The notes: a model not told the origin generated them from the sequence alone. 64,000 bases of DNA from Candidatus Woesebacteria bacterium (GCA_021208605.1 JAJOJK010000003.1:9481-73480), one strand, 5' to 3'; positions 5,063-64,000 are shown, counted from the first letter of the stretch. A program made the numbers and translations.

Positions 5063-5551
5063 TTATTGACCATCGAGAAACGGATTGTTCGGCTCAGTCG
5101 TCACAGTGGAAGTTTCACTTTCAGTCTCATTTTCCTGATTCGTTTCTTGGAATGGCGAAACATTTTCGGCTGATTCTTCTGGTGTGGAGGATGGCGTTGT
5201 GGTTTCTGCTGATTCGGTGGCTTCAACCAAACCTAACTCTCCCAGCGATTCCTGTACGGCGGCTTCTTCTGCGGCCGCTTCTTGTTGTTGGCGCAAAAGA
5301 ATTTCGCGCACGTAGGTACGAGCACCTTCGGTAGTGACAGTCTCATAGGACTCGAGCGTGAGAACCGTTTCCACGTCGAGCTGCGGATTGAGCGGCTCGG
5401 TTAAGGCACGCGTGGTCGAGGGGATCGTCGTGCGAGTGTTCGAGAGATAAATATCTATTCCCACACCAATCATGACCGCAATCAAGCCGAGTGTTAGACC
5501 AGCCACCACGAGGCGCTGACGCAAAATCCCGGCGTAACTCAACCGTTTCAT
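5063..5551 (-). CDS. pilus assembly-associated membrane protein (PilP-like position), acidic C-terminus
   Basis: N-terminal TM. The start overlaps the next gene by ATGA (4 nt) at 5548-5551, consistent with an operon with the PilO/PilN-like genes. Confidence 0.4.
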   Translation of the reverse strand: MKRLSYAGILRQRLVVAGLTLGLIAVMIGVGIDIYLSNTRTTIPSTTRALTEPLNPQLDVETVLTLESYETVTTEGARTYVREILLRQQQEAAAEEAAVQESLGELGLVEATESAETTTPSSTPEESAENVSPFQETNQENETESETSTVTTEPNNPFLDGQ

Positions 5552-6222
5552 GAGCGACTCCTTCGAACTTCAGATTGATAGCCATACATCAAGATGGTAG
5601 CGGTAGTGCGTAATGTACGCTCTTCCTCACGGTTTTCTTCAACCGTAAATGTAAATTCCTGCACCGCGAATAAAGGCTTCACCGATTCAATCGCGGCAAA
5701 AAACTGCATCACGTCATCATACGAACCAGTAAACGAAATCTGAAACGCATACGCTTGAATTTCGCGATCACCGAGCGACAATTGTTGACTGGCATCTTCT
5801 GGTGCTGTCAGCACTAGCGGAAACTCTTGGATCTGCAACCCAGCCAATGAGAGATTTTCGCGGGCCACTAAGTACTCCATATAAATGAGGGCCGTTTCCA
5901 AAGAAATGTTCGTATGGATGGCTTCATCCAAAATGCTAAAACGTTCGCTGTAGGTGAGATACTCGGTCTGTGCCGTGGCCAAAGCGGAAATTTTACGGCC
6001 TAACGCTAAATCGACTTCCTCCTTCTCCTCTATTTCCTGCAGTAAGGAAGACATCGTGTTCAATGTGGGTCGCAACGCAAAAAGGGCGAAAAACATCACA
6101 CCCAGTAAGGACATCACTAACTCAAACGATACTCGCGTAACGGGTTTTTCGTAAAACTTCTCGAGCTGATCACGTATGGTCGAGCCAGAGACGAGGTTGC
6201 GTTTTTGTTCTTGTTCAGCCAT
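5548..6222 (-). CDS. pilO: type IV pilus assembly protein PilO-like
   Basis: Single N-terminal TM then a coiled-coil and a C-terminal domain. Gene order matches the pilN-pilO arrangement. Confidence 0.5.
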   Translation of the reverse strand: MAEQEQKRNLVSGSTIRDQLEKFYEKPVTRVSFELVMSLLGVMFFALFALRPTLNTMSSLLQEIEEKEEVDLALGRKISALATAQTEYLTYSERFSILDEAIHTNISLETALIYMEYLVARENLSLAGLQIQEFPLVLTAPEDASQQLSLGDREIQAYAFQISFTGSYDDVMQFFAAIESVKPLFAVQEFTFTVEENREEERTLRTTATILMYGYQSEVRRSRS

Positions 6223-6228
6223 GATTTC

Positions 6229-6846
6229 TTATTCTTCCTGCAAGACTTCTGCTAATCCGCGTGAGTATGTGAGTGAAACTCCAAACGTGATTCCGGGATC
6301 GCGCACGTCTCCACTCTGGATGTTCGTAATGCTCACCGACTCGAATTCCGGCACCTGTTTCAAGCGATCAACAAACACTTCTAAACTCCGGTTGGATCGA
6401 ATGGTGCCACTAATATTCAACTTTTCGCGCCGCAACGATATCTGGTCATACACCACGTCAGACGGCGTGACTCGCTGTAAAATGGCCATCACTTCGTACC
6501 GCCCCTGCTGATCCAAAATGGCGGCAATATCGTCAGTTTGCTCTTGGACTTCGCGCACGTCTGCCTCGAGCGTGTCGTACGACTCGACAATGGCCTGCTT
6601 TTGAATAATGCTGCGGTTGAGGTCAGTGAGTTGACGGTCAAGCGTAAAGCGCGAAAAAAAGCTCACGATCACAATGACTTCGGTAAAAATAACAATATGT
6701 CGACCAATCGACACCGCCCACCGCAAAATTTTTCCAATCGGCGTGGCGTAAAACGGATCTTCGGGATACAGGTTCAGACTCGGGATCTGCAGTCCCGCTT
6801 TCTTCCCCGAAGACAAAAATGGCAGTGACGATATCAACGACGGCAT
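6229..6846 (-). CDS. pilN: type IV pilus assembly protein PilN-like
   Basis: N-terminal cytoplasmic motif ..LNLYPED.. (PilN INLLP-like), a TM helix (HIVIFTEVIVIVSFF), then a periplasmic coiled-coil. Confidence 0.55.
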   Translation of the reverse strand: MPSLISSLPFLSSGKKAGLQIPSLNLYPEDPFYATPIGKILRWAVSIGRHIVIFTEVIVIVSFFSRFTLDRQLTDLNRSIIQKQAIVESYDTLEADVREVQEQTDDIAAILDQQGRYEVMAILQRVTPSDVVYDQISLRREKLNISGTIRSNRSLEVFVDRLKQVPEFESVSITNIQSGDVRDPGITFGVSLTYSRGLAEVLQEE

Positions 6847-9589: not shown

Positions 9590-12500
9590 ATGCCGCCCGC
9601 TGAAACAAGAGATGGACAGCCATTTCTCGAGTCCGATTCGTTTCACGCCCTCACTCGGCTACGACCTGAAGAAATGGAGACAATAGACCAAATCTTTGCC
9701 TTAGCAGGTCTCCAGATTACCATTTTCCCATTAAAAAACGGAAATCTCTACGCCCTGTTTTACAATGAACTCGGCACAATTCAAGCTATCGATGCCAGAA
9801 CTCTTACTCAATGTATCGGTTTTTTCGTGGGCGCCAGCTCAGACTCACAACAAAATGCTACTGCTATTCATCAGAATCACACCGAACTGCAAAGTGAAGT
9901 GCAAACAATCAACCCTGAGTGGCAACTGCCAATTTTTAACCGCCTCTTACTCCTGGAGATTACGCAATCCCTCATATGGGAAATTTTCACTTCTATGCAT
10001 GATCTCAAGCCATCGGAAATAGAGGGTTTCAAGTATATTTTGGAGCATTACCACTATTATTTAGACATCAACTTTGGGAAAAATGGAGACAAGGCCCGTG
10101 GCCTTTTTTTTATGAATCCAGCCGCAACACCCGGAACGATTCCTCTCGAAAATGGTGAGCAGCTGGCCGGATTCGTATTACCACAAGATAACGAACGTAC
10201 TCAAAAACGCTGGCAAAAAACACTCGAAACTGAATTCTATGAAGCTACGGGGGAAAAAGGAGTTTTCTTCCCACCAGGAAAAGCCAGTGTGCTTCCTCTT
10301 TTGCAACAGTTTACTGAAAAAACACGGGGTGTTTCTCGACAGCATCCGGCATTTCTGGAATCAGAGTGGCAAACTGAGCGTCTCCGCCTGAGGGAAGAAG
10401 TTCGGCACTATTTATCACGCTTTTTCCAGCCTTATGGTATCGAGGTGCTCGACACCGCGCAGCTTATTCCGCACCAAAACCGAAATACCGAAAATGGTTC
10501 TGAATTCGTGGTAAATCGATTTCCGATGGCGGATTTTCTGTTTGTTGAAGCAGAAAAAGATACGGTTTCACTCACTCCTGTCCCGCTCATTGGTTGGAAA
10601 GCGGCAGCAGACAAAGGCCAACTCCCAACCGAAGTCACTATCTATGGAGGTGTTGGGGGAATTGGTATCGTGCCCAATACCGCTGACCTATCGGATCGAA
10701 AAACGTTCATGCGTTTAGCCAGTGGTGAGCTGCGCAGGTTTAATCCCACGCTACAACCTCATCTGGCAACTCATCCAAGCATCTTGACCGTCGACGAACG
10801 ACTTCTGCAAAAATGGCAAGAACTCGGCTCACCCATTCCAACCGAAACCGAGATTGCCCATGTAGTAGGGAGTCAGACCAGAAAACGCTCTCGTGACTAT
10901 GGTCTTGATATTCGCTCGTCAACACCACCTATCGTAGAGCTCCATCTCTACGAACCAAACGGTCCTGGTCTCTGGAACGGGCAAACAACCATGGTAGCGC
11001 ATCGTGACTCAAAAAATGCCAATGCCCTTCTTCTCGACGCAAGTTGGCCCCTAAACATTCCAATCTGGGCTCCAGGAGGAGCGAATCACTCCTATAAGGA
11101 AGGCATCGCTCCTTTTCTTGAAAAAAAACTCCTTGACCTTATTCCTCGCCTCTACAACTCTGAAGCACTCATCAATTCCATCAATACGGGTGTGCTCACT
11201 CGGGTCATGAAACTTGTTCACTCTCGCACCGATGAATATAAATACAAGAGTGTCGATGAGTATCTCCTGCTTGAAATCTACCACCGTTTTCAAAAAGATG
11301 GCCTGATCCAAATATTGCGTGAACAAGCTCGTAACCTCACCTACCAACTCATCAAAAGCGGAGAAATTGACCACCTGCTTCGCTATCTCGAGGAAAAAGA
11401 AGCTACCATCTATGGCAAACGCAAAACTCTCTATGATGGGATAGCACTCACGCATGCCCATGGAGACCACACAAAAACCAGTGCGCTTCATCGTCCTGAA
11501 ATCGTTCGCCTGAGCTCCCCAATCACCTGGGCTTTCTTGCGCGCGGACCATACCCTTTCGTATGATTGGGTAGGCCAAAGCACTGCAGTCCAACGCCTCC
11601 GAAAAATGCCCAAAGTGGGCAACAGCTATCCAGTCCTCGAATATCCTCATGTTCCACTAAACGATGGACAAACCTACGAAGTATCACCCGATATTTTTCT
11701 TACCGCTATTGCGGTTGATCACATTCCCGGAAGTATGGGTTTCCATATTGAAGTAAAACACAACGGACGCACTATTCACCGCATTTCCTATGGCGGAGAC
11801 ATGCGAGATACCCGTTTCTACCAGAAAGTACGTGAACTTGGAGGTACCGACTTACTGATTATGGAAGGCACGCATTTGCCAAAGGAGCAATATAAAGGCA
11901 AACCTATTCCTACAGAAGAACTGGTTGAAGTGCAATTAGACCAGGAAATTGCGAACGCTGGAAGCAATGCAATTGCTATCAACATCACCAGTCGTGACTT
12001 TAAGCGTCTGCACAGTATTCTTACAATTGCGCAAGCCCGCGGGCGCACGGTGATTATTTCTCCCAAAATCTTGTCGCAGTACCTAAAGTTACAAATGAAT
12101 GTCAAAGATGTTTTTCAGTCTCACTATCAAGATATTCCCGTTATCCCTATTGATGATCCCTTGATCCGCTCATGGCAGTCAGAAAAAGACACTTACACAT
12201 CAGAAGAAAAACATATTTTTCAAATTTTTAAACCCATTCAACCGCAAGATATTAACGCTGATCCACAACACTATCTGCTCATTCGTGAAGAAGAAGCCCC
12301 TCAGAAAATGGATGGTATTGGGCCCAATCTCGTCTGGATTAACTCCGCCGGCACATCTCCTGAAGTAGAACGCTACCAGAAATCATACGCTGAACAACGA
12401 GACTGGAGATACGTTTCTCGCGGCGTACGGGCGTTAGGCCACGCACCGCTTTTAGAGCCAGAGAATGATCCTCATAGCACCGGAGTGCTGGCACAAATTC

Positions 12501-12658
12501 CGACTTTGAAACCGAAAGCAATTTTGCCACTCCACACCGATGATCCCACAAAAGTAGCCCAGCTGATACGCTCCTACCCAGGAACTCGTGGCATCAATAT
12601 CTTTTCTGACCGGAAAGCGCCTCGCCTCAAAATAGACATGCGGAGAATTACACGCTAA
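9590..12658 (+). CDS. large protein: ~600-aa N-terminal region of unknown function fused to a C-terminal beta-CASP metallo-beta-lactamase nuclease domain
   Basis: C-terminal half carries ALTHAHGDHT (HxHxDH), VDHIPGS (His), ISYGGDMRD (Asp), LLIMEGTH (beta-CASP motif A), RALGHAPLLE (motif B His) and ILPLHTDD (motif C His). There is no Walker A, TM helix or signal peptide. The start codon is uncertain. Confidence 0.7.
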   Translation: MPPAETRDGQPFLESDSFHALTRLRPEEMETIDQIFALAGLQITIFPLKNGNLYALFYNELGTIQAIDARTLTQCIGFFVGASSDSQQNATAIHQNHTELQSEVQTINPEWQLPIFNRLLLLEITQSLIWEIFTSMHDLKPSEIEGFKYILEHYHYYLDINFGKNGDKARGLFFMNPAATPGTIPLENGEQLAGFVLPQDNERTQKRWQKTLETEFYEATGEKGVFFPPGKASVLPLLQQFTEKTRGVSRQHPAFLESEWQTERLRLREEVRHYLSRFFQPYGIEVLDTAQLIPHQNRNTENGSEFVVNRFPMADFLFVEAEKDTVSLTPVPLIGWKAAADKGQLPTEVTIYGGVGGIGIVPNTADLSDRKTFMRLASGELRRFNPTLQPHLATHPSILTVDERLLQKWQELGSPIPTETEIAHVVGSQTRKRSRDYGLDIRSSTPPIVELHLYEPNGPGLWNGQTTMVAHRDSKNANALLLDASWPLNIPIWAPGGANHSYKEGIAPFLEKKLLDLIPRLYNSEALINSINTGVLTRVMKLVHSRTDEYKYKSVDEYLLLEIYHRFQKDGLIQILREQARNLTYQLIKSGEIDHLLRYLEEKEATIYGKRKTLYDGIALTHAHGDHTKTSALHRPEIVRLSSPITWAFLRADHTLSYDWVGQSTAVQRLRKMPKVGNSYPVLEYPHVPLNDGQTYEVSPDIFLTAIAVDHIPGSMGFHIEVKHNGRTIHRISYGGDMRDTRFYQKVRELGGTDLLIMEGTHLPKEQYKGKPIPTEELVEVQLDQEIANAGSNAIAINITSRDFKRLHSILTIAQARGRTVIISPKILSQYLKLQMNVKDVFQSHYQDIPVIPIDDPLIRSWQSEKDTYTSEEKHIFQIFKPIQPQDINADPQHYLLIREEEAPQKMDGIGPNLVWINSAGTSPEVERYQKSYAEQRDWRYVSRGVRALGHAPLLEPENDPHSTGVLAQIPTLKPKAILPLHTDDPTKVAQLIRSYPGTRGINIFSDRKAPRLKIDMRRITR

Positions 12659-42981: not shown

Positions 42982-44445
42982 TTACTTTCTCAGTCTGTTC
43001 AATACGAGGGCGTAGTCGATGATATCGACGGTGCCGTCTTGGTTGATGTCAGCTTGGGCATCGGTGGTCAAGAGACGACGACGGATGTATGACAAGTCGA
43101 TAGTATTCACTTTGCGGTCACGGTTCGCGTCATAGTTAGCTCTGAAAGGTGGCTCTGGCGTTTCTGACACACAGCTCTGTACAACTGGCTCCGGTGTACC
43201 GAGACAGTAGTTACTGTTGGCGGTGGCTTTACGAGTCTGGATGCCAGACTTACAAGCAGACCACTGCGTGTAGGTGTACTCACACGTCGGAGTATTTTGG
43301 GTGATCATCGGAATAGGACGCGTGGTGGCAACTGGAATCGAGCCATCTGGATTTGTCGGAACTAGTCCGACTGGCGGAGTCGGTCGCAAACGGATAGAGT
43401 TATCACTAATTGTGGTACTTGGCGGAGTTGGCTGAGGAGTTGGAGACACCGACCCAGTAAGAGCACAGATTTGGGCTGGCATTACTTGAGCACAAGCCAA
43501 GCCATCAGGACATTCTGGCATGGGTGGCTGGTAACAAAACAGGCCTGGTTGGCAATCCGCATTTACAGAACAGTACTGTCCTTCTGATCCCGGAGCTGGT
43601 GTTGGGGTGGGTGCAGCCGTGGGTGATGGAGTGGGATCGCCGGGAGTAACTGGGTTTTCCGACACGATAGGAGAAGGTGTTGGAGTAGGCGTTGGCGTCA
43701 TGCGTGGATTCTCGATCGGATCAACCATTGCAATTGGCGTGGGCAGTGGTTGTACTTCTCCATCGATTACTTCAGCACAGATTTTGGCTGGCATCACTTG
43801 CGCACAAGCCATACCTTCCGGACATTCTGGCATGGGTGGCTGATAGCACACTAGACCAGGAGCACACTGTGAATCTTGCACACAGTTGCTTCCGGCTGGC
43901 TTTTGAATACTGACGATGTCATCGGATCCGAGTACCCGACCAGAAAAGGCGACTGGTGTCTTCAGTTGGTCTTCAGTTTGACGGAAGAGAGTTGCTTTTG
44001 AGGTACCTGGGTTCCAGGTAAGCGACAAATCTCCTTCAGACTGCGGCACAAAACTGATGGTAGCAATTTGTGTCGGTTGAGAAGCGGAAAAGGCTTTTTT
44101 TGAATTATTCAGTGTAAATACGAGTTGGATGGTGCCGTCGTCATTGACTTTGTTGACTTGGGCTTTGAGATTCGTGCGCTCGGCGTTCGCAACTTGGACG
44201 GTAATATCGCTCACGTCAACTCCGGTGAAATTGCCTTCCAGTTGAAGGGCATCCATGTTGGCGCTGTTGGAGTTTACAAAAAGATCAATTTTTGCCGGCT
44301 TGCCAGCAATGATTTGCTCGGAAGATTTGGCGGTAATTTCTATGGCGCCATCTTCTACCGAAGCTTGGTTGCGCACATCTTGAGAACTTTGGGATAAAAA
44401 GAAGGCAGCGGCAGCTCCGATCAATAAAACGAAAACAAAGGCCAC
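42982..44445 (-). CDS. surface protein with cohesin-like N-domain, two 37-aa Cys-rich repeats and C-terminal dockerin
   Basis: Type I dockerin repeats DANRDRKVNTIDLSYI and DINQDGTVDIIDYALV. Duplicated C(V/S)xxxxCxPGLxCYQPPMPECPxGxACAQVMPAxICA module. PTPTP linkers. Confidence 0.6.
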   Translation of the reverse strand: MAFVFVLLIGAAAAFFLSQSSQDVRNQASVEDGAIEITAKSSEQIIAGKPAKIDLFVNSNSANMDALQLEGNFTGVDVSDITVQVANAERTNLKAQVNKVNDDGTIQLVFTLNNSKKAFSASQPTQIATISFVPQSEGDLSLTWNPGTSKATLFRQTEDQLKTPVAFSGRVLGSDDIVSIQKPAGSNCVQDSQCAPGLVCYQPPMPECPEGMACAQVMPAKICAEVIDGEVQPLPTPIAMVDPIENPRMTPTPTPTPSPIVSENPVTPGDPTPSPTAAPTPTPAPGSEGQYCSVNADCQPGLFCYQPPMPECPDGLACAQVMPAQICALTGSVSPTPQPTPPSTTISDNSIRLRPTPPVGLVPTNPDGSIPVATTRPIPMITQNTPTCEYTYTQWSACKSGIQTRKATANSNYCLGTPEPVVQSCVSETPEPPFRANYDANRDRKVNTIDLSYIRRRLLTTDAQADINQDGTVDIIDYALVLNRLRK

Positions 44446-57297: not shown

Positions 57298-57705
57298 CTA
57301 CCGAATTTGCGCCGAAAAACTATGCGTCTCTACACCACCCTCAATTACTTGGGTGATCAAAATACGAGAGTCGTTAAAATCGATATTCATGGGTAACCCA
57401 GCCACTACTTCGATTTCACGATTGGCAAAAGACAATCGGAAGCCGTTTTCTATTACACTCACTTCAAAGCTGATATTTTTCTCATCATCACCGGTGTAAT
57501 TGACTGGTTCTGGTTTTCTGTCAACAGTTGAGGCATACACATAGTCCCATTTACGGCGAGCTAATTCTTGAATCTTAGGGAAAACATCCAAAATTCTTTC
57601 TTGCGAAATTCCTTCTGAATTTTCATTTTTCGCATCTTTTTCATTTCCGTTAGCCATTTGTTTCTCCTTTTTTTGTTTAGCGAGTTGCAGGTGTTGCTGG
57701 ATCAT
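57298..57705 (-). CDS. hypothetical small protein (array member 5)
   Basis: Part of five tightly packed co-oriented small ORFs. Lys/Glu-rich N-terminus, beta-rich C-terminus. Confidence 0.45.
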   Translation of the reverse strand: MIQQHLQLAKQKKEKQMANGNEKDAKNENSEGISQERILDVFPKIQELARRKWDYVYASTVDRKPEPVNYTGDDEKNISFEVSVIENGFRLSFANREIEVVAGLPMNIDFNDSRILITQVIEGGVETHSFSAQIR

Positions 57706-58054
57706 ACCCTTCCGTCGTTAAAATAAAGCGACGAACTTTTTTAGGATACATAACCTCTACAATTGTTTGATAGTCTGAAAAGATAGAAACGTTTGCATAC
57801 AAACCAGACTTTATTCGTAAAGGAATATCAATATCGTTTCCAGCACGATCTACAAAATTAATATGGATTTTGCCATTTTCCATGTTAAGAACAGAAATCT
57901 CACCTTCCGCCTCAATCTGCATATTTCCTAAATCAGGCCCTGAAAAAATGGTTACCCCCACATGACCCTGCGCAAATTTTTCAAATCTCGCACGAATGTT
58001 CTTAACAGTTTCTGCCGTTAGAGGCGTTGTGATTCCTTGTTCAGGTGATTTCAT
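57677..58054 (-). CDS. hypothetical small protein (array member 4)
   Basis: Shares an (I/L)xVxNMxNxK motif with member 3 (ISVLNMENGK vs LQVMNMRNEK). Confidence 0.45.
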   Translation of the reverse strand: MKSPEQGITTPLTAETVKNIRARFEKFAQGHVGVTIFSGPDLGNMQIEAEGEISVLNMENGKIHINFVDRAGNDIDIPLRIKSGLYANVSIFSDYQTIVEVMYPKKVRRFILTTEGYDPATPATR

Positions 58055-58065
58055 AGCATTCCTTA

Positions 58066-58398
58066 CTATCTGTGTTTATTTTTTTTCGACAAAATGTGGG
58101 TTATTGATTTACCATCTTTGGTTACTACAACCTGTATTGCATTTTCTTTTTTTAAAAGGGAGACAGAGCTCTTACTATCAATACTGAAAACTGGTTTCTC
58201 ATTTCGCATATTCATGACTTGAAGTGTGCTACCCCACACTTCGACGGATAGTTGGTTAAAATCACCCTTATGTATGACGCCAGATCCTAGACTGTCGGTC
58301 ACCACCACCCATTCACCAGATTCAATATCTTCCAGCTCAAGAGCCACCTGCAAAGCGACAATGCGACTCATCTCGCCGTGATCTGTCCAGTTTTCCAT
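58066..58398 (-). CDS. hypothetical small protein (array member 3)
   Basis: Predicted beta-rich. Putative paralog of member 4. Confidence 0.45.
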   Translation of the reverse strand: MENWTDHGEMSRIVALQVALELEDIESGEWVVVTDSLGSGVIHKGDFNQLSVEVWGSTLQVMNMRNEKPVFSIDSKSSVSLLKKENAIQVVVTKDGKSITHILSKKNKHR

Positions 58399-58409
58399 TG
58401 GTACTTTCT

Positions 58410-58760
58410 TTAGCGATTTCCGCCAGTTTTCGTAAAGGTATAGGAGAACGTTTTGTATTCGCCATCAAAAACACCACTAATGCTCATGGTTACGATATCG
58501 CCATCAGGCCAAATAAAAATCGAGGAATCTCTGGGAATAATCAACTCATGCTCCAAACCACACATCAAACGCAAGGCATTTTGACTCGCATGATTGAGAC
58601 TGAGTTGTACATTTTCAACTGGAAACGGTAACTTATGCCCACTCTTCCACTGACCAGACCAAGTATCATCTCTTCCAAAAGCAGCAAGAAAATCTGCAAA
58701 AATGGCATTTTTTGTATCTGGTTTAACAATGCGTGCTTGGTGTTCTGGTCCTAATGACAT
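58410..58760 (-). CDS. hypothetical small protein (array member 2)
   Basis: 116 aa, no motif. Lies 12 bp from member 3. Confidence 0.45.
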   Translation of the reverse strand: MSLGPEHQARIVKPDTKNAIFADFLAAFGRDDTWSGQWKSGHKLPFPVENVQLSLNHASQNALRLMCGLEHELIIPRDSSIFIWPDGDIVTMSISGVFDGEYKTFSYTFTKTGGNR

Positions 58761-58880
58761 GTTGCCCTCTTTTTTGCATTTCCCCCGCGGAGTAAACGGC
58801 TATTGTACCCAACCAAGACAATATGCCAAGGGCGAAATGTGCAGAAATGGTCTCAAAAAATGAGATTTCCTTGAGATTTC

Positions 58881-59351
58881 TTACAGTGAGCGAGTCAGTG
58901 TCAGTACTATATCTTGCTGTAAACCAGACGCATTCGTATACATGAGTGTGACCACCAGCTCGCCGCGAGCCGACATATAGGCACAGTACACGCGGCTGTC
59001 TACATTAAAAGCAATAGTCTCTAAGTCTCTTCGAGAGTTTTCATCGATAATTGTCAGCGTCATCGTTGGAGTTTTAGGATGATCTTGTGCTGCTACGTTG
59101 AGGGTAACTTCTTTCCCTTTGTAATCACCATTTGTAATTCGACCCAGGGTTTCATCGCCCAACGAAGTCTTCTCTGCTCGCCAAATGTGTTGAGATGGCT
59201 GGCCTTGAAAAAAATGGGTAATCTCTCGCACCTGTTCCGCGGTAAGACCAAGAAACTTACCCTCAAAAACCTCAGTAAAGGCAATGAGCTTTGGTGAACT
59301 CTCAGGATCATTGTCGTAGTTTTTTCTACCATCTTCTCCATTACGAGACAT
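58881..59351 (-). CDS. hypothetical small protein (array member 1)
   Basis: 156 aa with beta-rich repeats (TLNVAAQD, TMTLTIID, LVVTLMYT). Confidence 0.45.
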   Translation of the reverse strand: MSRNGEDGRKNYDNDPESSPKLIAFTEVFEGKFLGLTAEQVREITHFFQGQPSQHIWRAEKTSLGDETLGRITNGDYKGKEVTLNVAAQDHPKTPTMTLTIIDENSRRDLETIAFNVDSRVYCAYMSARGELVVTLMYTNASGLQQDIVLTLTRSL

Positions 59352-59457
59352 CAGGGCACCTGTTTCTAAGTGTTAATGTTTTTACGTGTGATAATCCGTA
59401 TTATAGTAGGCTCGTCCCAATATAGGCCGCAACAAAAACAAGTGCTACAATACCCGC

Positions 59458-59886
59458 ATGAACCTCTCTGTGCGCACGCAACGTTTTGTGTCGAGTGTTT
59501 TTTCTGCGACAGCATTCTCTCTGTACTTTGCCGAATCAGCGATGGCCCAACTTGGCGCCTGGACAGAAGCAAATGGCTGTGTGTTCATTGCGGAGGACGT
59601 TGGCGCAGTCGCTACTATACAAGGAGTAGAGTGTCTCGTGCGCAACGTCTTGGCTTCAGCCACGACTTTTGTTGGCTTGGCCGCGTTTGTCATGTTGATT
59701 ATTGGTGGATTCCTTTACTTAACTTCCGGCAGCAACTCCAAAGGTACCGACGCCGCCAAACAGACGATCACCTACGCCATTATTGGTATTGTGGTGGCCT
59801 TGATGGCCTTCTTCCTCTTGCAGTTCGTCGCGATTGTGACTGGCGCACGAGGATTTTTGGAGTTTAATTTGAATTTGGGGAATTAA
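59458..59886 (+). CDS. VirB2/TrbC-like T4SS pilin
   Basis: Signal peptide then two hydrophobic helices separated by a short polar loop (..FVGLAAFVMLIIGGFLYLTSGSNSKGTDAAKQTITYAIIGIVVALMAFFLLQFV..). Size 142 aa. Confidence 0.55.
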   Translation: MNLSVRTQRFVSSVFSATAFSLYFAESAMAQLGAWTEANGCVFIAEDVGAVATIQGVECLVRNVLASATTFVGLAAFVMLIIGGFLYLTSGSNSKGTDAAKQTITYAIIGIVVALMAFFLLQFVAIVTGARGFLEFNLNLGN

Positions 59887-60070
59887 GCATTTTCAAGGTA
59901 ACCTTTCTGATCAATTACCTCAAGAAAGGTTACCTTAAGTTAACCCTTCTTGAGGAAAACAGAAGCGAAGGTAACCTTCCAAAGCGTTTCACAACCCACA
60001 TTGCCGTTTCCGCATCCAGGCAGTACAATACAAACGTTACGCATCAGCGCGCAGCCGAGAAAAATTCTCT

Positions 60071-62005
60071 TTGCGTAACAAGCATATGAAGCACTGGGTA
60101 ACCAAATTAATCGCACTTGTTTTTGTTCTCGCCCTCGGGGCCCAGCTTTTTTTGACACCTGCACAGGTTTTTGCCCAAGCTCCTACAACCCAATATGATG
60201 ACGAACGCTGTCTCGATCCCGAATTTGCAGCCGATCCCGCGAATGCCGCCCTGTGTACAAGAACCGTCGGCGGCTCCGAAATTAGCGCCGAATCTATCCG
60301 CCAAGCGATCAACTCTCCCACCCCAAACTTAGCCAACACAACCGCCTACGTTTTCTATACGATTTCGATTCTTTTAACCGGAACGTTTGATCCGAGCTAC
60401 GCTGGCGAACAGGCCTCGGTGCCGGTCAGTACCTTTGCTGATGCTACCGATCGTGGCGGCGCACTCGGCGGAATTGGCTTTTTAATGGGCCAACTCGTGG
60501 CCAATCCGCCCGCCTCGGCGCAGTACTACATGGCGGACCTCGTCAACAACGCCAGATTCACCGGTTCACCGGTTTACGCCCAAGGAATTGGATTCGGCGC
60601 GCTGAACCCCATTCTCGGCACCTGGAAAGCCTTCCGTGACGTGGCGTATTACCTCTTAACCATCATGTTCTTGGTTACTGGTTTCCTCATCTTGATTCGC
60701 CATAAGATCAGCGGAAACGTGGCCGTAACCGTGCAAAACGCGTTGCCAAAACTCGTTATTACACTGATTCTCATCACGTTCTCTTACGCCATCGCCGGCC
60801 TTGTGGTCGATATCATGTTCTTGGCGTTGTTCTTTATTATTAGTATTTTTGGACAGTATATTTTCTTGCCAGATGCTAACTTTGCCACTGGGGCTCTTAT
60901 GAGCAGAGAATATGTTGGACTCAGTGAAATTGCTTTCAATACGCACATTTTTGAGTTTATGGTCGGCTTTATCTTCAGTGGAACAACCTGGAAAGCGGCG
61001 CAATCGGTCGGTCAAATAATGACCCAAGCCATCGGATCCTTCCCATTACTCGACGTCATCGCTGGTCAAGGCTCTATTCTTCGCCCGCTCTTCAATGAAA
61101 TTATCAATGTTTTTATCGTCCTGATTTTGGCCATTGCCCTCTTTATTGCCATGATCCGCACCTTCTTCTCTTTAATAATGTCCTATGCCGGATTTGTAAT
61201 TAACGTTGTGCTGAGTCCGTTTATCTTGCTAGTTGGGGCGGTTCCTGGAAAAGATCCCTGGAAAAACTGGATTAAGAATCTTATCGCTGGACTGGCTCCA
61301 TTCGTAGTCGCTATCTTTATGATCTTCATGAGTTTAGCACTCACCGGGCAACAAACCCGTGATGGAATCGGTTACAAAGCCGATGGTGGACAAGTTGAAG
61401 GACTCCGGCTTCCGCTCATTACCGGCGGAGTAGCCAGCGCGGATGCGTTCATCGGAATTTTGGCCATGGGCTTCATGCTCTTAATGCCAGAGGCCGTGAA
61501 GATGACGAAGAAGTTTATGCAGGTATCTGGTGGCATATTCGAAGAACAAAAAGATGCCGCTTTGGCAAACTTTAAACAAGGTGTGAGCGGAAACAAATAT
61601 GTACCAGGTGCTGGAAAGGTCGCTAAAGGCGCGGCTATTTCAGCTGGACTAGGACTGGCTGGTGGAACCGCTGGCGCTATCATTGCTGGTAAAAATGCGT
61701 ATGCTTCTTCACAAGCTGAGGGTCATGGGAGATTCCGAAGTAGTGTCAATGCTGCTTTAAAGGGAACAGGCGGAGGTTTAGCTGGTGGATTTGCTGGCGC
61801 CACAGCCTATCCAGCTGCTACAATGGGAGCACCTGTGGTTAGAAATGTTAAAAAAGGCGTTGAATACGTCAAGAAATTTGATTCTCCGGCCGCTGACTTA
61901 CTGCGTGCTCTTGAGCTGAACAGGGCTAAACAAAGAGCGCAACAAAAGGGAGCTGAAGAGGAACAGCAAGTTTCAGTTGATAAACCTGAAGTAGATACAT
62001 TTTAG
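60071..62005 (+). CDS. VirB6/TrbL-like polytopic membrane protein with Gly-rich C-terminal region
   Basis: Signal peptide, 6 or more TM helices in the central region, GxxG-rich C-terminal tail. Ends QVSVDKPEVDTF. Confidence 0.5.
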   Translation: MRNKHMKHWVTKLIALVFVLALGAQLFLTPAQVFAQAPTTQYDDERCLDPEFAADPANAALCTRTVGGSEISAESIRQAINSPTPNLANTTAYVFYTISILLTGTFDPSYAGEQASVPVSTFADATDRGGALGGIGFLMGQLVANPPASAQYYMADLVNNARFTGSPVYAQGIGFGALNPILGTWKAFRDVAYYLLTIMFLVTGFLILIRHKISGNVAVTVQNALPKLVITLILITFSYAIAGLVVDIMFLALFFIISIFGQYIFLPDANFATGALMSREYVGLSEIAFNTHIFEFMVGFIFSGTTWKAAQSVGQIMTQAIGSFPLLDVIAGQGSILRPLFNEIINVFIVLILAIALFIAMIRTFFSLIMSYAGFVINVVLSPFILLVGAVPGKDPWKNWIKNLIAGLAPFVVAIFMIFMSLALTGQQTRDGIGYKADGGQVEGLRLPLITGGVASADAFIGILAMGFMLLMPEAVKMTKKFMQVSGGIFEEQKDAALANFKQGVSGNKYVPGAGKVAKGAAISAGLGLAGGTAGAIIAGKNAYASSQAEGHGRFRSSVNAALKGTGGGLAGGFAGATAYPAATMGAPVVRNVKKGVEYVKKFDSPAADLLRALELNRAKQRAQQKGAEEEQQVSVDKPEVDTF

Positions 62006-62011
62006 TAAATT

Positions 62012-62170
62012 ATGAAATTAGTAATTCACAATCCATTCAGAAAACATTCTACTAAAGTTCAGGATGATTCCACGGATGATTCTAAAAAAATGCCTTTAAC
62101 TTTAAAAGAAAAACTGCCGCAAACTTCTCAACAAGTAAATGTTGAAAATCCTGATATCGATACGTTCTAA
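62012..62170 (+). CDS. small ORF (52 aa) sharing the C-terminal tail of the upstream gene
   Basis: Not in the ORF track (<60 aa). Translates to MKLVIHNPFRKHSTKVQDDSTDDSKKMPLTLKEKLPQTSQQVNVENPDIDTF. The last 12 aa (QVNVENPDIDTF) parallel QVSVDKPEVDTF of the VirB6-like protein. Confidence 0.3.
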   Translation: MKLVIHNPFRKHSTKVQDDSTDDSKKMPLTLKEKLPQTSQQVNVENPDIDTF

Positions 62171-62250
62171 TTCATCCGTTCAGACAAATTTTTCAAACAT
62201 CAAAGCCAAATATGACTTGGTTTATAGTTTAAAAAAATCTTAAATGACCG

Positions 62251-63948
62251 CTACTTACTTCCACTCAAGTTGGAGAAAATAGCCTCAGTAGGTTTAGTAA
62301 AGTCTTCGGCTTTGATCTGCAATCCAACTAAATAGTAGAGTTCTAAAAGTGTTTCTCCATCAAAAACATTTATCTGTTGGATGTCAGGGACTTCCATTGT
62401 TAAGAAACTTGAATCGATTGTCGGATCACCTTTTCTGAGTCTTTCCAAGAAAACAGAGGCAGTTGTCAGAGAAGACTCTAATGGTCCTTTATCAACACGA
62501 TTTCGGTGTCGAGTTACAAAGTCATTTGCAAAGAACATACCATGCAAGGTAAGTTTGTCACGCGTCAAGTCAGCAATAGTACTTCCACCATACCAGAAGA
62601 TGTGATGTCCTTTGGCAATAAGTTCTCTCTTTATTAAGAGATCTGGATAAATTCCCAAAGAACCACGAGCTGTTTCACCTTTCGCCGCAGCTACGTTTAC
62701 ATCTTCCACAGTTGGAGCGTCGCGGCGAACCTTAATAGTCATTGTCTTTTGCGGATAATTGATAACCGAACCGTCTGATCTTCGACGCATTTGAGTCGGA
62801 ACTACGGCTGTATTAATGTCTATCACTTTTTTATTCATATCTGCCATAGTCATCCACCGGGTTAATTCAGGTGGACTGGTGTACCACCATTGATTTACAC
62901 GTGTAGAATAATCAGGCGATGTTTTAAAGGTTCCCTTCATTGTTGATTCAAAATGCCCTGAAGTGTCATTTCCATTTTCATCTACTACTCGAATGCGAAT
63001 ATATTGACCAGTAGGATTAATTTCATCGATAAATGGAATCCCGTCAGCATATCTAGCCTTCTCTTCTCTAGAAGGAGGTTGACAAGCCATAAAAGGCATT
63101 GCGTCTGTTTGTCCAGCATACTTATGTGCATATTTGATATAAGTGGTCCAGTTATCAAAGTATTCGGCATTCGCCTTGGTGGGCTCATTTTGGCGATAAT
63201 TAATGGTTCCACTGCTATTCGGATCCATGCTTGAACGTTTTTCTAAATCAAACTTAGCAACAGAAGTCATTGTTTTAATGTGATTTCCATATGCTGCTGA
63301 GGGGTTGTCAGGGAAAAGGTCCCACCGAAAAGTTGGATCTGCAAAAGTTTTTACAGTATCAGGTGAACTTCTAAATCGTTGTGTCCAAGTCATACCGTCA
63401 TAACCGTAAAAATCAAAGTAAGGCATAACGTACCCTTTGACAATACCAAAAATATTTCCAGGCAAAGTAGTGTTGTTAAAAGCTCCATTGTACGTATCTT
63501 TATAGATATAAGGAGCTGCAGTTCCAATAGAAATTCTGTGCAAAAGCTTTAATCCAGACGGAGAACCAGGCAATTTTGATCCAGAAGTTCGATTGATATC
63601 TTGAGATCCAGATTCATTTGTAATTTCCGTCAAACTAAGAGCTGTTAGGCCAGCGAATCGCGCCGCCATATCACTCCATGTACCTCTTGTAGAGTCATCT
63701 ACAGATTTAGCAGACACCATCTCAACAACTTCATCAAAGTTCTTCTTACGAGTGGCTGTTAAAGCACCAGCTTTTTCGGCATATACCCACGGATGCAATG
63801 ATCGAGATTGTGTTGTTGTTCCTACTACACTAACAGGAATAACTTTAGGTGATCGTTCACCATTCTTCAGCAATAATTTAGAACCAGTATGTCGTTCGGG
63901 CGCTTCACTGGTTCCCATTTTTTCTTCCAATCGTTCACCTCTTCGCAA
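62251..63948 (-). CDS. hypothetical large aromatic-rich protein (565 aa)
   Basis: Long open frame with no TM, signal peptide or recognisable motif. Confidence 0.45.
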   Translation of the reverse strand: MRRGERLEEKMGTSEAPERHTGSKLLLKNGERSPKVIPVSVVGTTTQSRSLHPWVYAEKAGALTATRKKNFDEVVEMVSAKSVDDSTRGTWSDMAARFAGLTALSLTEITNESGSQDINRTSGSKLPGSPSGLKLLHRISIGTAAPYIYKDTYNGAFNNTTLPGNIFGIVKGYVMPYFDFYGYDGMTWTQRFRSSPDTVKTFADPTFRWDLFPDNPSAAYGNHIKTMTSVAKFDLEKRSSMDPNSSGTINYRQNEPTKANAEYFDNWTTYIKYAHKYAGQTDAMPFMACQPPSREEKARYADGIPFIDEINPTGQYIRIRVVDENGNDTSGHFESTMKGTFKTSPDYSTRVNQWWYTSPPELTRWMTMADMNKKVIDINTAVVPTQMRRRSDGSVINYPQKTMTIKVRRDAPTVEDVNVAAAKGETARGSLGIYPDLLIKRELIAKGHHIFWYGGSTIADLTRDKLTLHGMFFANDFVTRHRNRVDKGPLESSLTTASVFLERLRKGDPTIDSSFLTMEVPDIQQINVFDGETLLELYYLVGLQIKAEDFTKPTEAIFSNLSGSK

Positions 63949-64000
63949 AATTTCACGAAATGCACAAAATATCTGTTCTGCTAACGTTTTAGTTTCCTGG

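What the first reader, a model, noticed from the sequence alone, without database searches (positions are those of the whole stretch)
59458..62170. VirB2-like pilin plus VirB6/TrbL-like membrane protein, with a duplicated 12-aa C-terminal tail in a following micro-ORF
A 142-aa protein has a signal peptide and two hydrophobic helices, the typical T4SS pilin (VirB2/TrbC) organisation. It is followed by a 644-aa polytopic membrane protein with a Gly-rich tail (VirB6/TrbL-like). There is no relaxase, coupling protein or VirB4 ATPase inside the window, so this may be a minimal T4SS-like or competence apparatus. The VirB6-like protein ends ...QVSVDKPEVDTF*. Six bp downstream, a 52-aa ORF (62012-62170) ends ...QVNVENPDIDTF*. 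This is a diverged duplication of the tail at the nucleotide level, suggesting the tail is a functional motif (sorting, processing or interaction) or a duplication scar.
Basis: partly seen in the sequence, partly recalled or inferred. Interest (0 to 1): 0.55.

Follow-up and report, generated by a model that had tools for sequence, protein, structure and literature searches.

The report
T4SS pilin, VirB6-like protein, tail-mimic micro-gene
In an uncultured Woesebacteria (Patescibacteria) chromosome, a type IV secretion pilin gene and a very divergent VirB6-like membrane-protein gene are followed by a tiny gene that copies the big protein's last 13 residues, a pattern that recurs in distant relatives and lies inside a block of DNA that is swapped between close strains.

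Summary
The 142-aa protein passes Pfam's own cut-off for T4SS_pilin. The membrane protein (probably 639 aa, starting at 60086) has no sequence-family match. However, its AlphaFold model hits almost only R388 TrwI/VirB6 in the PDB. Its relatives sit behind pilin-gene arrays, and in 11 loci they lie 3.6-8.9 kb upstream of PrgI and VirB4 genes.

The 52-aa micro-ORF repeats the 13-residue tail (score 54 against 24.6±3.5 for shuffles). Across those codons, synonymous sites are saturated (pS 0.73) while replacement sites are conserved (pN 0.20). That points to an old duplicate under purifying selection, not a fresh scar.

The same arrangement, with unrelated tail sequences, occurs in at least three other lineages, and more weakly in three more. 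In 6 of 8 pairs of closely related loci, all homology stops 190-510 nt before the stop codon of the VirB6-like gene and resumes 3-5 kb later. The C-terminal region, the micro-ORF and a converging large orphan gene therefore form a replaceable cassette.

The window has no VirB4 or VirD4, and the rest of the genome could not be checked. The mechanism I propose, a free copy of a cytoplasmic docking tail, is inferred and not shown.

The parts
59443..59451 (+). TGCTACAAT extended -10-like box, 6 nt before the pilin ATG. It suggests a leaderless pilin transcript.
   Evidence: Read directly from the sequence. The same TAcAAT-then-ATG layout, with no Shine-Dalgarno, occurs at many housekeeping genes in the window. 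The function is inferred.
59458..59886 (+). T4SS pilin (VirB2-like), 142 aa: signal-like N-terminus ending AMA|Q, then two hydrophobic helices.
   Evidence: Pfam PF18895 at E 2.5e-8, 34.3 bits against a 26.6 cut-off. NCBIfam NF045849 at E 4e-5, below its cut-off. TM segments at residues 64-82 and 108-126. The syntenic orthologue in L001, L002, L167 and L168 carries PF18895.
59895..59936 (+). Perfect 14-bp hairpin just after the pilin stop. It may be a partial terminator or an RNA stabiliser.
   Evidence: Inverted repeat I6, 100% complementary. RNA fold energy -21.8 kcal/mol, z -3.8 against shuffles. There is no T-run after it, so any terminator role is inferred.
60001..60029 (+). Promoter-like site TTGCCG-17-TACAAT, 57 nt before the ATG of the VirB6-like gene.
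   Evidence: Consensus scan. The number of sites found in the region is no higher than in shuffles, so this is weak evidence.
60086..62005 (+). VirB6-like polytopic membrane protein, 639 aa (644 aa if it starts at the TTG at 60071). It has a signal peptide, a 156-aa exported domain, a 7-TM core and a C-terminal region predicted to be cytoplasmic.
   Evidence: 214 un-annotated homologues, all from Patescibacteria/Microgenomates MAGs. AF2 model pLDDT 77, with the core above 90. Foldseek against the PDB gives TrwI/VirB6 chains as 8 of the top 9 hits, best E 1.7e-3 and probability 1.00. Relatives are linked to pilin arrays and to PrgI/VirB4. Topology.
61600..62005 (+). Variable C-terminal region (approximate start): two Gly/Ala-rich repeats, an amphipathic helix (residues 601-625) and the terminal tail.
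   Evidence: The family alignment loses its consensus after about residue 510. The model is disordered over residues 519-599 and has a helix at 601-625 with pLDDT about 83. There is an internal 27-nt repeat at 61651 and 61774. In close relatives, homology breaks 190-510 nt before the stop.
61964..62005 (+). Tail copy 1: QQVSVDKPEVDTF plus the TAG stop.
62012..62170 (+). 52-aa micro-ORF. It has no signal peptide or TM segment, starts at an ATG 6 nt after TAG TAA, and is probably translated by termination-reinitiation coupling.
   Evidence: It is annotated as a hypothetical protein (MCD8506999.1 and others) in Candidatus Woesebacteria MAGs. Analogous micro-ORFs occur in L023, L136, L088, L001, L129/L112 and L155. 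Coupled translation is inferred.
62129..62170 (+). Tail copy 2: QQVNVENPDIDTF plus the TAA stop.
   Evidence: 29 of 42 nt and 8 of 13 aa match copy 1. pS is 0.73 against pN 0.20.
62251..64000 (-). 3' part of a converging 959-aa soluble orphan gene, cut off by the window end. A large converging gene holds this position next to the VirB6-like gene in most related loci.
   Evidence: Its full length is seen in L167. It has no Pfam hit, no TM segment and no signal peptide. Only 4 relatives exist among 1.84 billion representatives. Converging ORFs of at least 364 aa (mostly 850-1190 aa) follow the gene in all 13 loci that could be inspected, and there is a 1237-aa one in L032. The gene is replaced together with the VirB6-like C-terminus in close relatives.

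Best explanation
The locus encodes two parts of the chromosomal, origin-proximal type IV secretion apparatus of a Candidatus Woesebacteria (Patescibacteria, Microgenomatia) bacterium. One is a VirB2-like pilin. The other is a highly divergent VirB6-like membrane subunit, which in characterised systems is the platform that receives pilin and forms part of the channel.

The VirB6-like protein has a conserved exported domain and a 7-TM core. Its C-terminal region is fast-changing, probably cytoplasmic, and ends in a short tail. The 52-aa micro-ORF is an old duplicate of that C-terminal module, split off as a separate gene. It is probably translated by coupling to the upstream stop. Only the 13-residue tail has been held constant by selection.

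Both proteins therefore present the same C-terminal short linear motif in the cytoplasm. The soluble micro-protein most likely occupies the same partner site as the membrane-anchored tail, acting as a competitor, an escort or a stoichiometric supplement.

The partner is not identified. The candidates are the T4SS ATPase complex, or the large soluble orphan protein that is encoded head-on next door and exchanged together with the tail.

Shown: the pilin family, the fold and context link to VirB6, the reality, age and recurrence of the tail duplication, and the replaceable cassette in relatives. Inferred: the topology, translation of the micro-ORF, the existence of a shared partner, and what the micro-protein does.
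For: Pilin: the Pfam T4SS_pilin hit is above the gathering score.

VirB6-like, by fold: the AF2 model has pLDDT 77. Foldseek against 350,542 PDB chains returns TrwI/VirB6 of R388 as ranks 1-4 and 6-9 (E 1.7e-3 to 0.5, probability up to 1.00), with DotA-IcmX at rank 27. Chain identity was verified.

VirB6-like, by context: pilin-like ORF arrays lie upstream, with a median of 4 and up to 12 per locus. PrgJ/VirB4 homologues lie 3.6-8.9 kb downstream on the same strand in 11 loci, which is 9 of the 46 loci with at least 8 kb of downstream sequence. PrgI and TraC_F_IV-like genes sit beside them. The locus is about 7.4 kb from dnaA/dnaN. PMC12102498 reports that Patescibacterial T4SS genes cluster near dnaA/dnaN and that VirB6 is 'scarce' in Microgenomatia, 'suggesting extreme sequence divergence'.

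Tail duplication in the window: z is about 8-9. pS is 0.73 and pN is 0.20 over the 13 codons. Similarity is confined to the tail, and the other 39 codons are not alignable.

Recurrence elsewhere: L023 (65 aa, z 13.6), L136 (82 aa, z 13.4) and L088 (59 aa, z 11.4), with weaker cases in L001, L129/L112 and L155. All seven start at ATG, 4-42 nt after the stop. For the four with any second match at E<=1 (window, L023, L136, L088), the best match outside itself is the 3' end of its own upstream gene.

Persistence: the L136 and L129 micro-ORFs are orthologues (E 1e-10, 38% identity, 82 and 83 aa, dN/dS about 0.46). No fused internal tail repeat occurs in 266 family members.

Cassette: in 6 of 8 locus pairs with 80-93% nt identity, all homology ends 190-510 nt before the stop. 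In the five pairs where downstream sequence was available, homology resumes 3-5 kb later, beyond the converging gene. The converging proteins of the one pair compared (L023/L022) are not alignable.

Topology: the positive-inside pattern places the C-terminus in the cytoplasm, and the micro-protein has no export signal.
Against: Neither a TrbL/VirB6 HMM nor a profile-profile comparison detects the protein. The Foldseek TM-scores are low (0.34-0.38, rmsd about 11 A).

There is no VirB4, VirB3 or VirD4 in the window or within 10 kb downstream in the same strain.

Most family members, including close relatives L002-L009, have no micro-ORF, so it is dispensable for the apparatus.

The selection signal in the window rests on only 13 codons. 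There are no expression data, no Shine-Dalgarno and no identified partner.

Cassettes whose converging proteins belong to one family still have unrelated tails. This weakens the idea that the extreme tail recognises that protein.

A weakly hydrophobic Gly/Ala segment at residues 516-534 could be an eighth TM helix, which would put the tail outside the cell.
Confidence: 0.5

Rival explanations
1. The micro-ORF is a non-functional scar. The disordered 3' end of this gene is prone to tandem duplications that include the stop codon, and the downstream copy simply has not decayed yet.
For: The distribution is sporadic: 7 of about 146 complete loci, and absent from close relatives L002-L009. The 3' end is clearly unstable. 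There is no Shine-Dalgarno or promoter. An ORF of 52 codons could stay open by chance for some time.
Against: In the window's tail, synonymous sites are saturated while replacement sites are conserved (pS 0.73, pN 0.20). Similarity is confined to the tail instead of decaying evenly. The L136 and L129 orthologues keep the ORF, its length and its N-terminus at 38% identity. All seven start at ATG. No internal, non-split tail duplications occur in 266 proteins, which is not what neutral slippage predicts.
Confidence: 0.2
2. The micro-protein is an exclusion or self-protection factor. Like the entry-exclusion genes that abut virB6 genes on plasmids, it would act allele-specifically against a sibling's apparatus carrying the same VirB6-like tail, by mimicking that tail inside the target cell.
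For: [quoted passage not shown] R388 has an EexN gene directly before trwI. Here a small gene abuts the VirB6-like gene, lies in a strain-variable region and matches it allele for allele.
Against: Known exclusion proteins are membrane proteins or lipoproteins, whereas this one has no TM segment or lipobox. They complement their target rather than copy it. Most cassettes lack the micro-ORF. There is no evidence that these bacteria transfer anything between siblings.
Confidence: 0.12
3. The large protein is not a VirB6 homologue. It is a Patescibacteria-specific membrane protein with another role, such as a pilin insertase or platform of independent origin, or a transporter, that merely travels with pilin genes.
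For: No sequence-level signal to TrbL/VirB6 or PrgH. Low TM-scores. In this clade it is separated from VirB4.
Against: The only PDB fold family retrieved with high probability is TrwI/VirB6. VirB4 linkage in 11 loci is far above chance for a single-copy gene in genomes of about 1 Mb. In the cluster stretches inspected, from the pilin array to VirB4 in L032 and L052, none of the neighbouring genes scanned has a VirB6/TrbL hit or an obvious VirB6-like character. One caveat is that TM content was not checked for the 830-aa gene upstream in L052.
Confidence: 0.15
4. The repeat is a variation device: either a DGR template/variable-repeat pair, or a silent cassette used to switch the tail by recombination.
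For: DGRs are, from my own knowledge (no paper checked), common in Patescibacteria, and they place a copy of a gene's 3' end downstream. The C-terminus is hypervariable between strains.
Against: No reverse transcriptase lies within 10 kb. The copies are only 69% identical over 42 nt. The mismatches are not specific to adenines in one copy: of 13, A is in the micro copy at 7 and in the big copy at 5. In L023 and L136 the copies are similar only at the protein level, which is too diverged to recombine. Four assemblies of the strain show no variation in either tail.
Confidence: 0.03

Closest known systems
VirB2-like pilins of Patescibacterial T4SS (Pfam PF18895 T4SS_pilin; pilin arrays of Southlakia epibionticum and Nanosynbacter lyticus TM7x, described in PMC12102498 and PMC12857230)
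   Same: The HMM match is above threshold. The size is right, and the layout is a signal peptide plus two hydrophobic helices. The gene sits on the chromosome near dnaA. Relatives carry arrays of 2-12 such genes upstream of the same membrane-protein family.
   Different: There is a single pilin gene here rather than an array, and no VirB4 nearby. Whether a pilus is made is unknown.
VirB6/TrbL family (PF04610), e.g. TrwI of R388 (PDB 7O3V, 8RT9, 8RTD), and 'extended VirB6' proteins with extra unstructured domains (PMC12857230)
   Same: It is a polytopic protein encoded next to the pilin gene. The best and nearly only PDB fold matches are TrwI chains. The N-terminus is outside and the C-terminus is probably inside. 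It has a long, unstructured C-terminal extension, as in extended VirB6 proteins.
   Different: There is no detectable sequence or profile similarity. It is about twice the length of TrwI, with a cleavable signal peptide and a 156-aa N-terminal exported domain. Its C-terminal third is exchanged between close strains.
Entry-exclusion pairs TraG(VirB6-like)/Eex and TraG/TraS (PMC11493245)
   Same: A small gene abuts a virB6-like gene. Specificity lies in a short, variable, cytoplasmic segment of the VirB6-like protein. Alleles are matched within an element.
   Different: The micro-protein is soluble and is a copy of the tail, not a membrane protein that recognises it. No exclusion phenotype is known in Patescibacteria.
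Polymorphic C-terminal cassettes of secretion systems (CdiA-CT/CdiI, Rhs, VgrG C-terminus with adaptor and effector); the comparison rests on my own knowledge of these systems
   Same: The N-terminal bulk is conserved, and homology is lost abruptly inside the 3' part of the gene between close strains. The neighbouring genes are replaced at the same time.
   Different: The host gene is a T4SS structural membrane protein. No toxin, immunity or adaptor domain is recognisable. The neighbouring large gene converges on it rather than following it. No cargo has been shown.

Membership tests
T4SS_pilin (PF18895) / VirB2-like pilin | Match to the family HMM above the curated cut-off | tested here: met
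   34.3 bits against a 26.6 cut-off, E 2.5e-8, profile positions 8-71 of 71.
T4SS_pilin (PF18895) / VirB2-like pilin | Small protein (under 200 aa) with a signal sequence and two hydrophobic helices | tested here: met
   142 aa. Helices at residues 64-82 and 108-126. The N-terminal region ends AMA|Q. The cleavage site is inferred.
T4SS_pilin (PF18895) / VirB2-like pilin | Encoded with other T4SS genes | tested here: inconclusive
   It is next to the VirB6-like gene, but no VirB4, VirB3 or VirD4 lies in the window or within 10 kb. Pilin arrays plus VirB4 are found in the loci of relatives.
T4SS_pilin (PF18895) / VirB2-like pilin | Polymerises into a pilus | not testable with these tools
   This needs microscopy or biochemistry.
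VirB6/TrbL (PF04610) | Sequence or profile similarity to the family | tested here: not met
   No Pfam, NCBIfam or PDB sequence hit. hhalign against TrwI, PrgH and a 31-sequence TrwI alignment gives a probability below 1%.
VirB6/TrbL (PF04610) | Fold similarity to a solved VirB6 | tested here: inconclusive
VirB6/TrbL (PF04610) | Polytopic membrane protein with five or more hydrophobic helices | tested here: met
   Seven TM helices after the signal peptide by hydropathy, and long helices in the model.
VirB6/TrbL (PF04610) | Genomic linkage to VirB4 and VirB3 | tested here: inconclusive
   Met at family level: 11 loci have PrgJ-like VirB4, and PrgI was confirmed in the two that were scanned (L032, L052). 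Not met for this window or its closest clade.
VirB6/TrbL (PF04610) | Pentameric stalk or platform that receives pilin | not testable with these tools
   No multimer prediction was available.
Entry-exclusion factor acting on VirB6 | Small gene abutting the virB6 gene | tested here: met
   The micro-ORF starts 6 nt after the stop. The precedent is in PMC11493245, and R388 has EexN next to trwI.
Entry-exclusion factor acting on VirB6 | Membrane anchor or lipoprotein signal | tested here: not met
   There is no hydrophobic segment, no Cys and no lipobox in the 52 residues.
Entry-exclusion factor acting on VirB6 | Blocks transfer from a donor of the same exclusion group | not testable with these tools
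   This needs mating or co-culture assays.
Diversity-generating retroelement (VR/TR pair) | Reverse transcriptase nearby, and mismatches confined to adenines of the template copy | tested here: not met
   No RT is found in the neighbours. Of 13 mismatches, 7 have A in the micro copy and 5 have A in the big copy, with 69% identity overall.
Polymorphic C-terminal cassette (CdiA-CT / Rhs / VgrG-effector type) | Abrupt loss of homology inside the 3' part of the gene between close strains, with the neighbours replaced as well | tested here: met
   Seen in 6 of 8 locus pairs at 80-93% nt identity, for example L007/L085 (94% flanks, 5-kb block) and L023/L022. It could not be tested for the window strain itself, because no close relative with a different cassette was found.
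Polymorphic C-terminal cassette (CdiA-CT / Rhs / VgrG-effector type) | Recognisable toxin or effector with an immunity or adaptor domain | tested here: not met
   No Pfam hit in any cassette protein tested. The AF2 model of the converging protein failed, with pLDDT 31.

The most novel reading that the evidence does not exclude
The C-terminal third of the VirB6-like subunit, the tail-mimic micro-protein and the converging 850-1240-aa soluble orphan protein form a horizontally exchanged specificity or cargo cassette of the Patescibacterial T4SS. The membrane-anchored tail would be the docking site for a strain-specific substrate, and the free tail peptide would hold or gate that substrate. This would be a T4SS counterpart of VgrG-effector or CdiA-CT modules. 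It would also nominate the first candidate effectors of the secretion system that is essential for the epibiotic life of these bacteria.
Probability: 0.2. Interest if true: 0.85.

Novelty: new variant of a known kind. Interest (0 to 1): 0.62.

Why it matters
The Patescibacterial T4SS is essential in the one species where it has been tested (as reported in PMC12102498 and PMC12857230). What it transports, and how it recognises cargo, is unknown.

Three results here bear on that question.

1. This un-annotated family of more than 200 proteins is a concrete candidate for the VirB6 subunit that the 2025 survey found 'scarce' in Microgenomatia.
2. The cytoplasmic C-terminus of that subunit is swapped between close strains together with a large orphan protein. 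This singles out a small set of genes as candidate specificity determinants or substrates.
3. A short C-terminal motif is kept identical in two adjacent proteins in several unrelated lineages. That gives a peptide-sized handle for pull-downs or multimer modelling.

If the micro-ORF turns out to be only a scar, the remaining result is still useful but ordinary: a pilin plus a divergent VirB6 near oriC.

Tried and rejected
Searches that found nothing:
- Pfam, NCBIfam and PHROGs found nothing for the membrane protein, the five upstream small ORFs or the converging gene; the micro-ORF's only match was a chance-level Pfam hit (Beta-barrel_GLAA-B_II, E 0.052, 14.2 bits against a cut-off of 28).
- PDB sequence search with a 41-sequence profile gave only low-complexity noise.
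- tblastn against 72,556 plasmids gave nothing.
- hhalign of the family profile against TrwI, PrgH and a TrwI-family alignment was not significant.
- Rfam found nothing credible in 59300-62300.

- The converging protein is essentially an orphan. A word-indexed search found only itself, and a full HMMER scan of 1.84 billion representatives found 4 proteins. AF2 on that shallow alignment failed with pLDDT 31.

Ideas tested and rejected:
- Stop-codon readthrough or frameshifting to an alternative C-terminus. The stop is a double TAG TAA, and across the seven cases the micro-ORF lies in frame 0 four times and frame +1 three times.
- A DGR. There is no RT and no adenine-specific mismatch pattern.
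- A genome-wide sorting motif. No third ORF with the tail exists in the window or in the three other strong loci, and homologues have unrelated tails.
- Fused internal tail repeats. None in 266 family members.
- Paralogy among the five small upstream ORFs. None.


Full report
WHAT IS THERE

Neighbouring genes are housekeeping: lepA, ATP-dependent DNA ligase, gap, pgk, lgt and a class II aminoacyl-tRNA synthetase of the Asp/Lys/Asn type.

The micro-ORF sequence is annotated as a hypothetical protein in Candidatus Woesebacteria MAGs. Four assemblies of the same strain match the window at 99.96-99.99%. Those contigs extend past the window's end. After the micro-ORF come a converging 959-aa gene, three more orphan genes, then dnaA about 7.4 kb away, then dnaN. 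The locus is therefore chromosomal and close to the replication origin.

THE PILIN

The 142-aa protein matches Pfam T4SS_pilin (PF18895) at 34.3 bits, above the 26.6 cut-off. It gives a sub-threshold hit to NCBIfam's Mycoplasma ICE pilin-like protein. It has a signal-like N-terminus and two hydrophobic helices.

A TGCTACAAT box sits 6 nt before its ATG with no Shine-Dalgarno, a layout shared by many genes in the window. A perfect 14-bp hairpin follows its stop.

THE LARGE MEMBRANE PROTEIN

The likely start is the ATG at 60086, giving 639 aa. Hydropathy and charge give a signal peptide, a 156-aa exported acidic domain, seven TM helices (residues 186-467) and a Lys/Arg-rich C-terminal region of about 170 residues that should be cytoplasmic.

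It has 214 homologues, none with any Pfam domain. Nearly all the named ones come from Patescibacteria MAGs, chiefly Microgenomates-group lineages.

Sequence methods do not connect it to VirB6:
- No Pfam, NCBIfam or PDB sequence hit.
- hhalign probability below 1% against TrwI, PrgH or a TrwI-family alignment.

Two other lines of evidence do connect it.

1. Fold. The AlphaFold model built on 120 sequences is confident (pLDDT 77, core above 90). Foldseek against 350,542 PDB chains returns TrwI/VirB6 of the R388 T4SS as ranks 1-4 and 6-9 (best E 1.7e-3, probability 1.00). Legionella DotA-IcmX is at rank 27, and chain identity was checked. The TM-scores are low (about 0.37), so I treat this as supportive, not conclusive.

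2. Gene context in 160 related loci. Pilin-like ORFs form arrays upstream, with a median of 4 and up to 12 per locus. PrgJ-type VirB4 genes lie 3.6-8.9 kb downstream on the same strand in 11 loci, which is 9 of the 46 loci with enough flank. Next to them are PrgI-domain and TraC_F_IV-like genes.

This matches the published picture of a monoderm-type T4SS with added VirB2-like pilins near dnaA/dnaN. The same paper reports that VirB6 is 'scarce' in Microgenomatia, 'suggesting extreme sequence divergence' (PMC12102498). This family is a good candidate for that missing subunit.

In the window's own clade the pair is detached from VirB4. There is no Walker-A ATPase of that kind in the 64 kb, in L001 or L002, or within 10 kb downstream in the same strain. 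Whether the genome has VirB4 elsewhere could not be tested.

THE TAIL AND THE MICRO-ORF

The micro-ORF starts 6 nt after TAG TAA, in frame. It ends QQVNVENPDIDTF against QQVSVDKPEVDTF for the large protein. The alignment scores 54, against 24.6 +/- 3.5 for shuffles.

The similarity is confined to the tail. Within the 13 codons, synonymous sites are saturated (5.8 differences over 7.8 sites, pS 0.73) while replacement sites are conserved (6.2 over 31.2, pN 0.20). This points to an old duplicate whose tail is kept by selection in both copies. A recent scar would show even decay. The sample of 13 codons is small.

The tail is not a family feature. Homologues end in unrelated, mostly Pro/Thr/Gly-rich sequences, and no other ORF in the window carries it.

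RECURRENCE

I scanned every related locus for a short ORF that starts near the stop and resembles the upstream C-terminus. Three more strong cases emerged, each with a completely different tail:
- L023: 65 aa, ...AGGNGTSEPDSEN against ...AGGNGSTGSTSEN, z 13.6, alignable over 52 residues.
- L136: 82 aa, ...AKEVVDRIVGE against ...AKEKTDQIVGE, z 13.4, alignable over 74 residues.
- L088: 59 aa, ...TTAPPPPEN against ...TTAPPPAES, z 11.4.

Weaker cases are L001, L129/L112 and L155. The 95th percentile of z across loci is 3.6.

All seven begin with ATG, 4-42 nt after the stop. They lie in frame 0 four times and frame +1 three times, which rules out readthrough. For the four with any second match at E<=1 (window, L023, L136, L088), the best match outside itself is the 3' end of its own upstream gene.

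The L136 and L129 micro-ORFs are orthologues: E 1e-10, 38% identity, 82 and 83 aa, a strongly conserved N-terminus and dN/dS about 0.46. Their upstream genes are 63% identical. At least in that clade, the small gene has persisted.

No member of the family (266 checked) carries the duplicated module fused inside one ORF. Most loci, including close relatives of the window, have no micro-ORF at all. The feature is therefore accessory. It was either gained several times or lost many times.

A REPLACEABLE CASSETTE

L022 and L023 share 83-90% nucleotide identity over more than 11 kb. All similarity stops 376/433 nt before the stop of the VirB6-like gene and resumes 4.6-4.9 kb later. The block between holds the C-terminal 125-144 codons, the micro-ORF (in L023 only), a converging gene of 857 or 1135 aa, and one more gene. 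The proteins in the two versions cannot be aligned.

The same pattern holds for L007/L085 (94% flanks, 5-kb block), L121/L124, L012/L090, L122/L155 and L106/L125. That is 6 of 8 independent pairs at 80-93% identity.

Large converging ORFs follow the gene in all 13 loci that could be inspected, ranging from at least 364 aa to more than 1180 aa. L032 has one of 1237 aa. The window's version is soluble, without a signal peptide or TM segment. It has no Pfam hit and only four relatives among 1.84 billion representative proteins.

In the window, GC falls from about 50% to 31-42% from about position 61950 onward.

The variable C-terminus, the micro-ORF and the converging orphan are thus inherited as one unit. 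This suggests, but does not prove, that they work together.

MECHANISM

I commit to the following. The micro-protein is a free cytoplasmic copy of the docking tail of the VirB6-like subunit. It is made by translational coupling and binds the same partner site as the membrane-anchored tail, acting as a competitor, an escort or a supplement. The partner is either the T4SS ATPase complex or the cassette-encoded orphan protein.

Only the sequence relationships, their age, their recurrence and the cassette are shown. The topology, translation and binding are inferred.

Against the idea that the partner is the orphan protein: cassettes whose converging proteins belong to one detectable family still have unrelated tails.

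Rivals:
- A neutral scar. It is weakened by the selection signal, the persistence of orthologues, the 7 of 7 ATG starts and the absence of fused repeats.
- An exclusion-type factor. Small exclusion genes are known to abut virB6 genes and to act on cytoplasmic parts of VirB6-like TraG (PMC11493245; R388 EexN). Those proteins are membrane-bound and do not copy their target.
- A protein unrelated to VirB6.
- A DGR or silent cassette. There is no RT, the mismatches are not adenine-specific, and the copies are too diverged.

NOVELTY AND VERDICT

The pilin and the T4SS context are known biology from 2023-2025. Three things are, as far as the searched literature shows, not described: assigning this un-annotated family as the divergent VirB6 of Microgenomatia, the strain-variable C-terminal cassette, and the recurrent tail-copying micro-gene. 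I rate it a new variant of a known kind, interest 0.62.

Noticed in passing
window, e.g. 59443-59458, and upstream of the genes at 13047, 17223, 45648, 46614, 51747, 57126 and 35268: Many genes have a TAcAAT/TACACT box 6-10 nt before the ATG and no Shine-Dalgarno. This suggests widespread leaderless transcripts in this Woesebacteria genome.
   Followed up: partly
window 57298-59351 (- strand): Five small soluble orphan genes (110-156 aa) sit between lepA and the pilin gene in this lineage only. They show no paralogy with each other, no Pfam, NCBIfam or PHROG hit, and no homologue in 160 related loci. L001 and L002 have lepA directly next to the pilin.
   Followed up: partly
window 62251-64000 (- strand); full gene in L167 10240-13119: The converging 959-aa soluble protein is almost an orphan, with 4 relatives among 1.84 billion representatives. 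Even so, a large converging gene occupies this position in most related loci and is replaced along with the VirB6-like C-terminus. AF2 gave pLDDT 31.
   Followed up: partly
window 5548-6846 (- strand): Type IV pilus assembly genes PilN (6229-6846) and PilO (5548-6222) are present. Downstream on the same strand are un-annotated ORFs and a 498-aa protein with Big_13, fn3 and purple acid phosphatase N-terminal domains at 3503-4999. This is a second, separate pilus system in the same window.
   Followed up: no
window 9590-12658 (+ strand): A 1022-aa protein whose only Pfam hit is Lactamase_B_2.
   Followed up: no
window 61651-61677 and 61774-61800: An internal 27-nt direct repeat (78% identical, 41 codons apart) encodes two Gly/Ala-rich GLAGG(T/F)AGA segments in the disordered linker of the VirB6-like protein. 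The first is weakly hydrophobic and could be mistaken for an eighth TM helix.
   Followed up: partly
L167-L170 (same strain as the window), downstream of the micro-ORF: The four assemblies split the 959-aa, 419-aa, 650-aa and dnaA genes differently, for example 708+250 aa or 599+302 aa. They differ from the window only by 1-5 gaps in 12 kb. These are probably homopolymer or assembly errors rather than biology.
   Followed up: partly
window 42982-44445 (- strand): A 487-aa protein with a C-terminal dockerin type I domain, which is unusual in a tiny Patescibacterial genome.
   Followed up: no
L032 16693-18045 and L052 14826-15707: In relatives with a complete cluster, the PrgI (VirB3-like) domain is fused to a C-terminal CarboxypepD_reg-like beta-sandwich. 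The VirB4 N-terminal TraC_F_IV-like region is a separate gene of 223-235 aa just before the ATPase.
   Followed up: no
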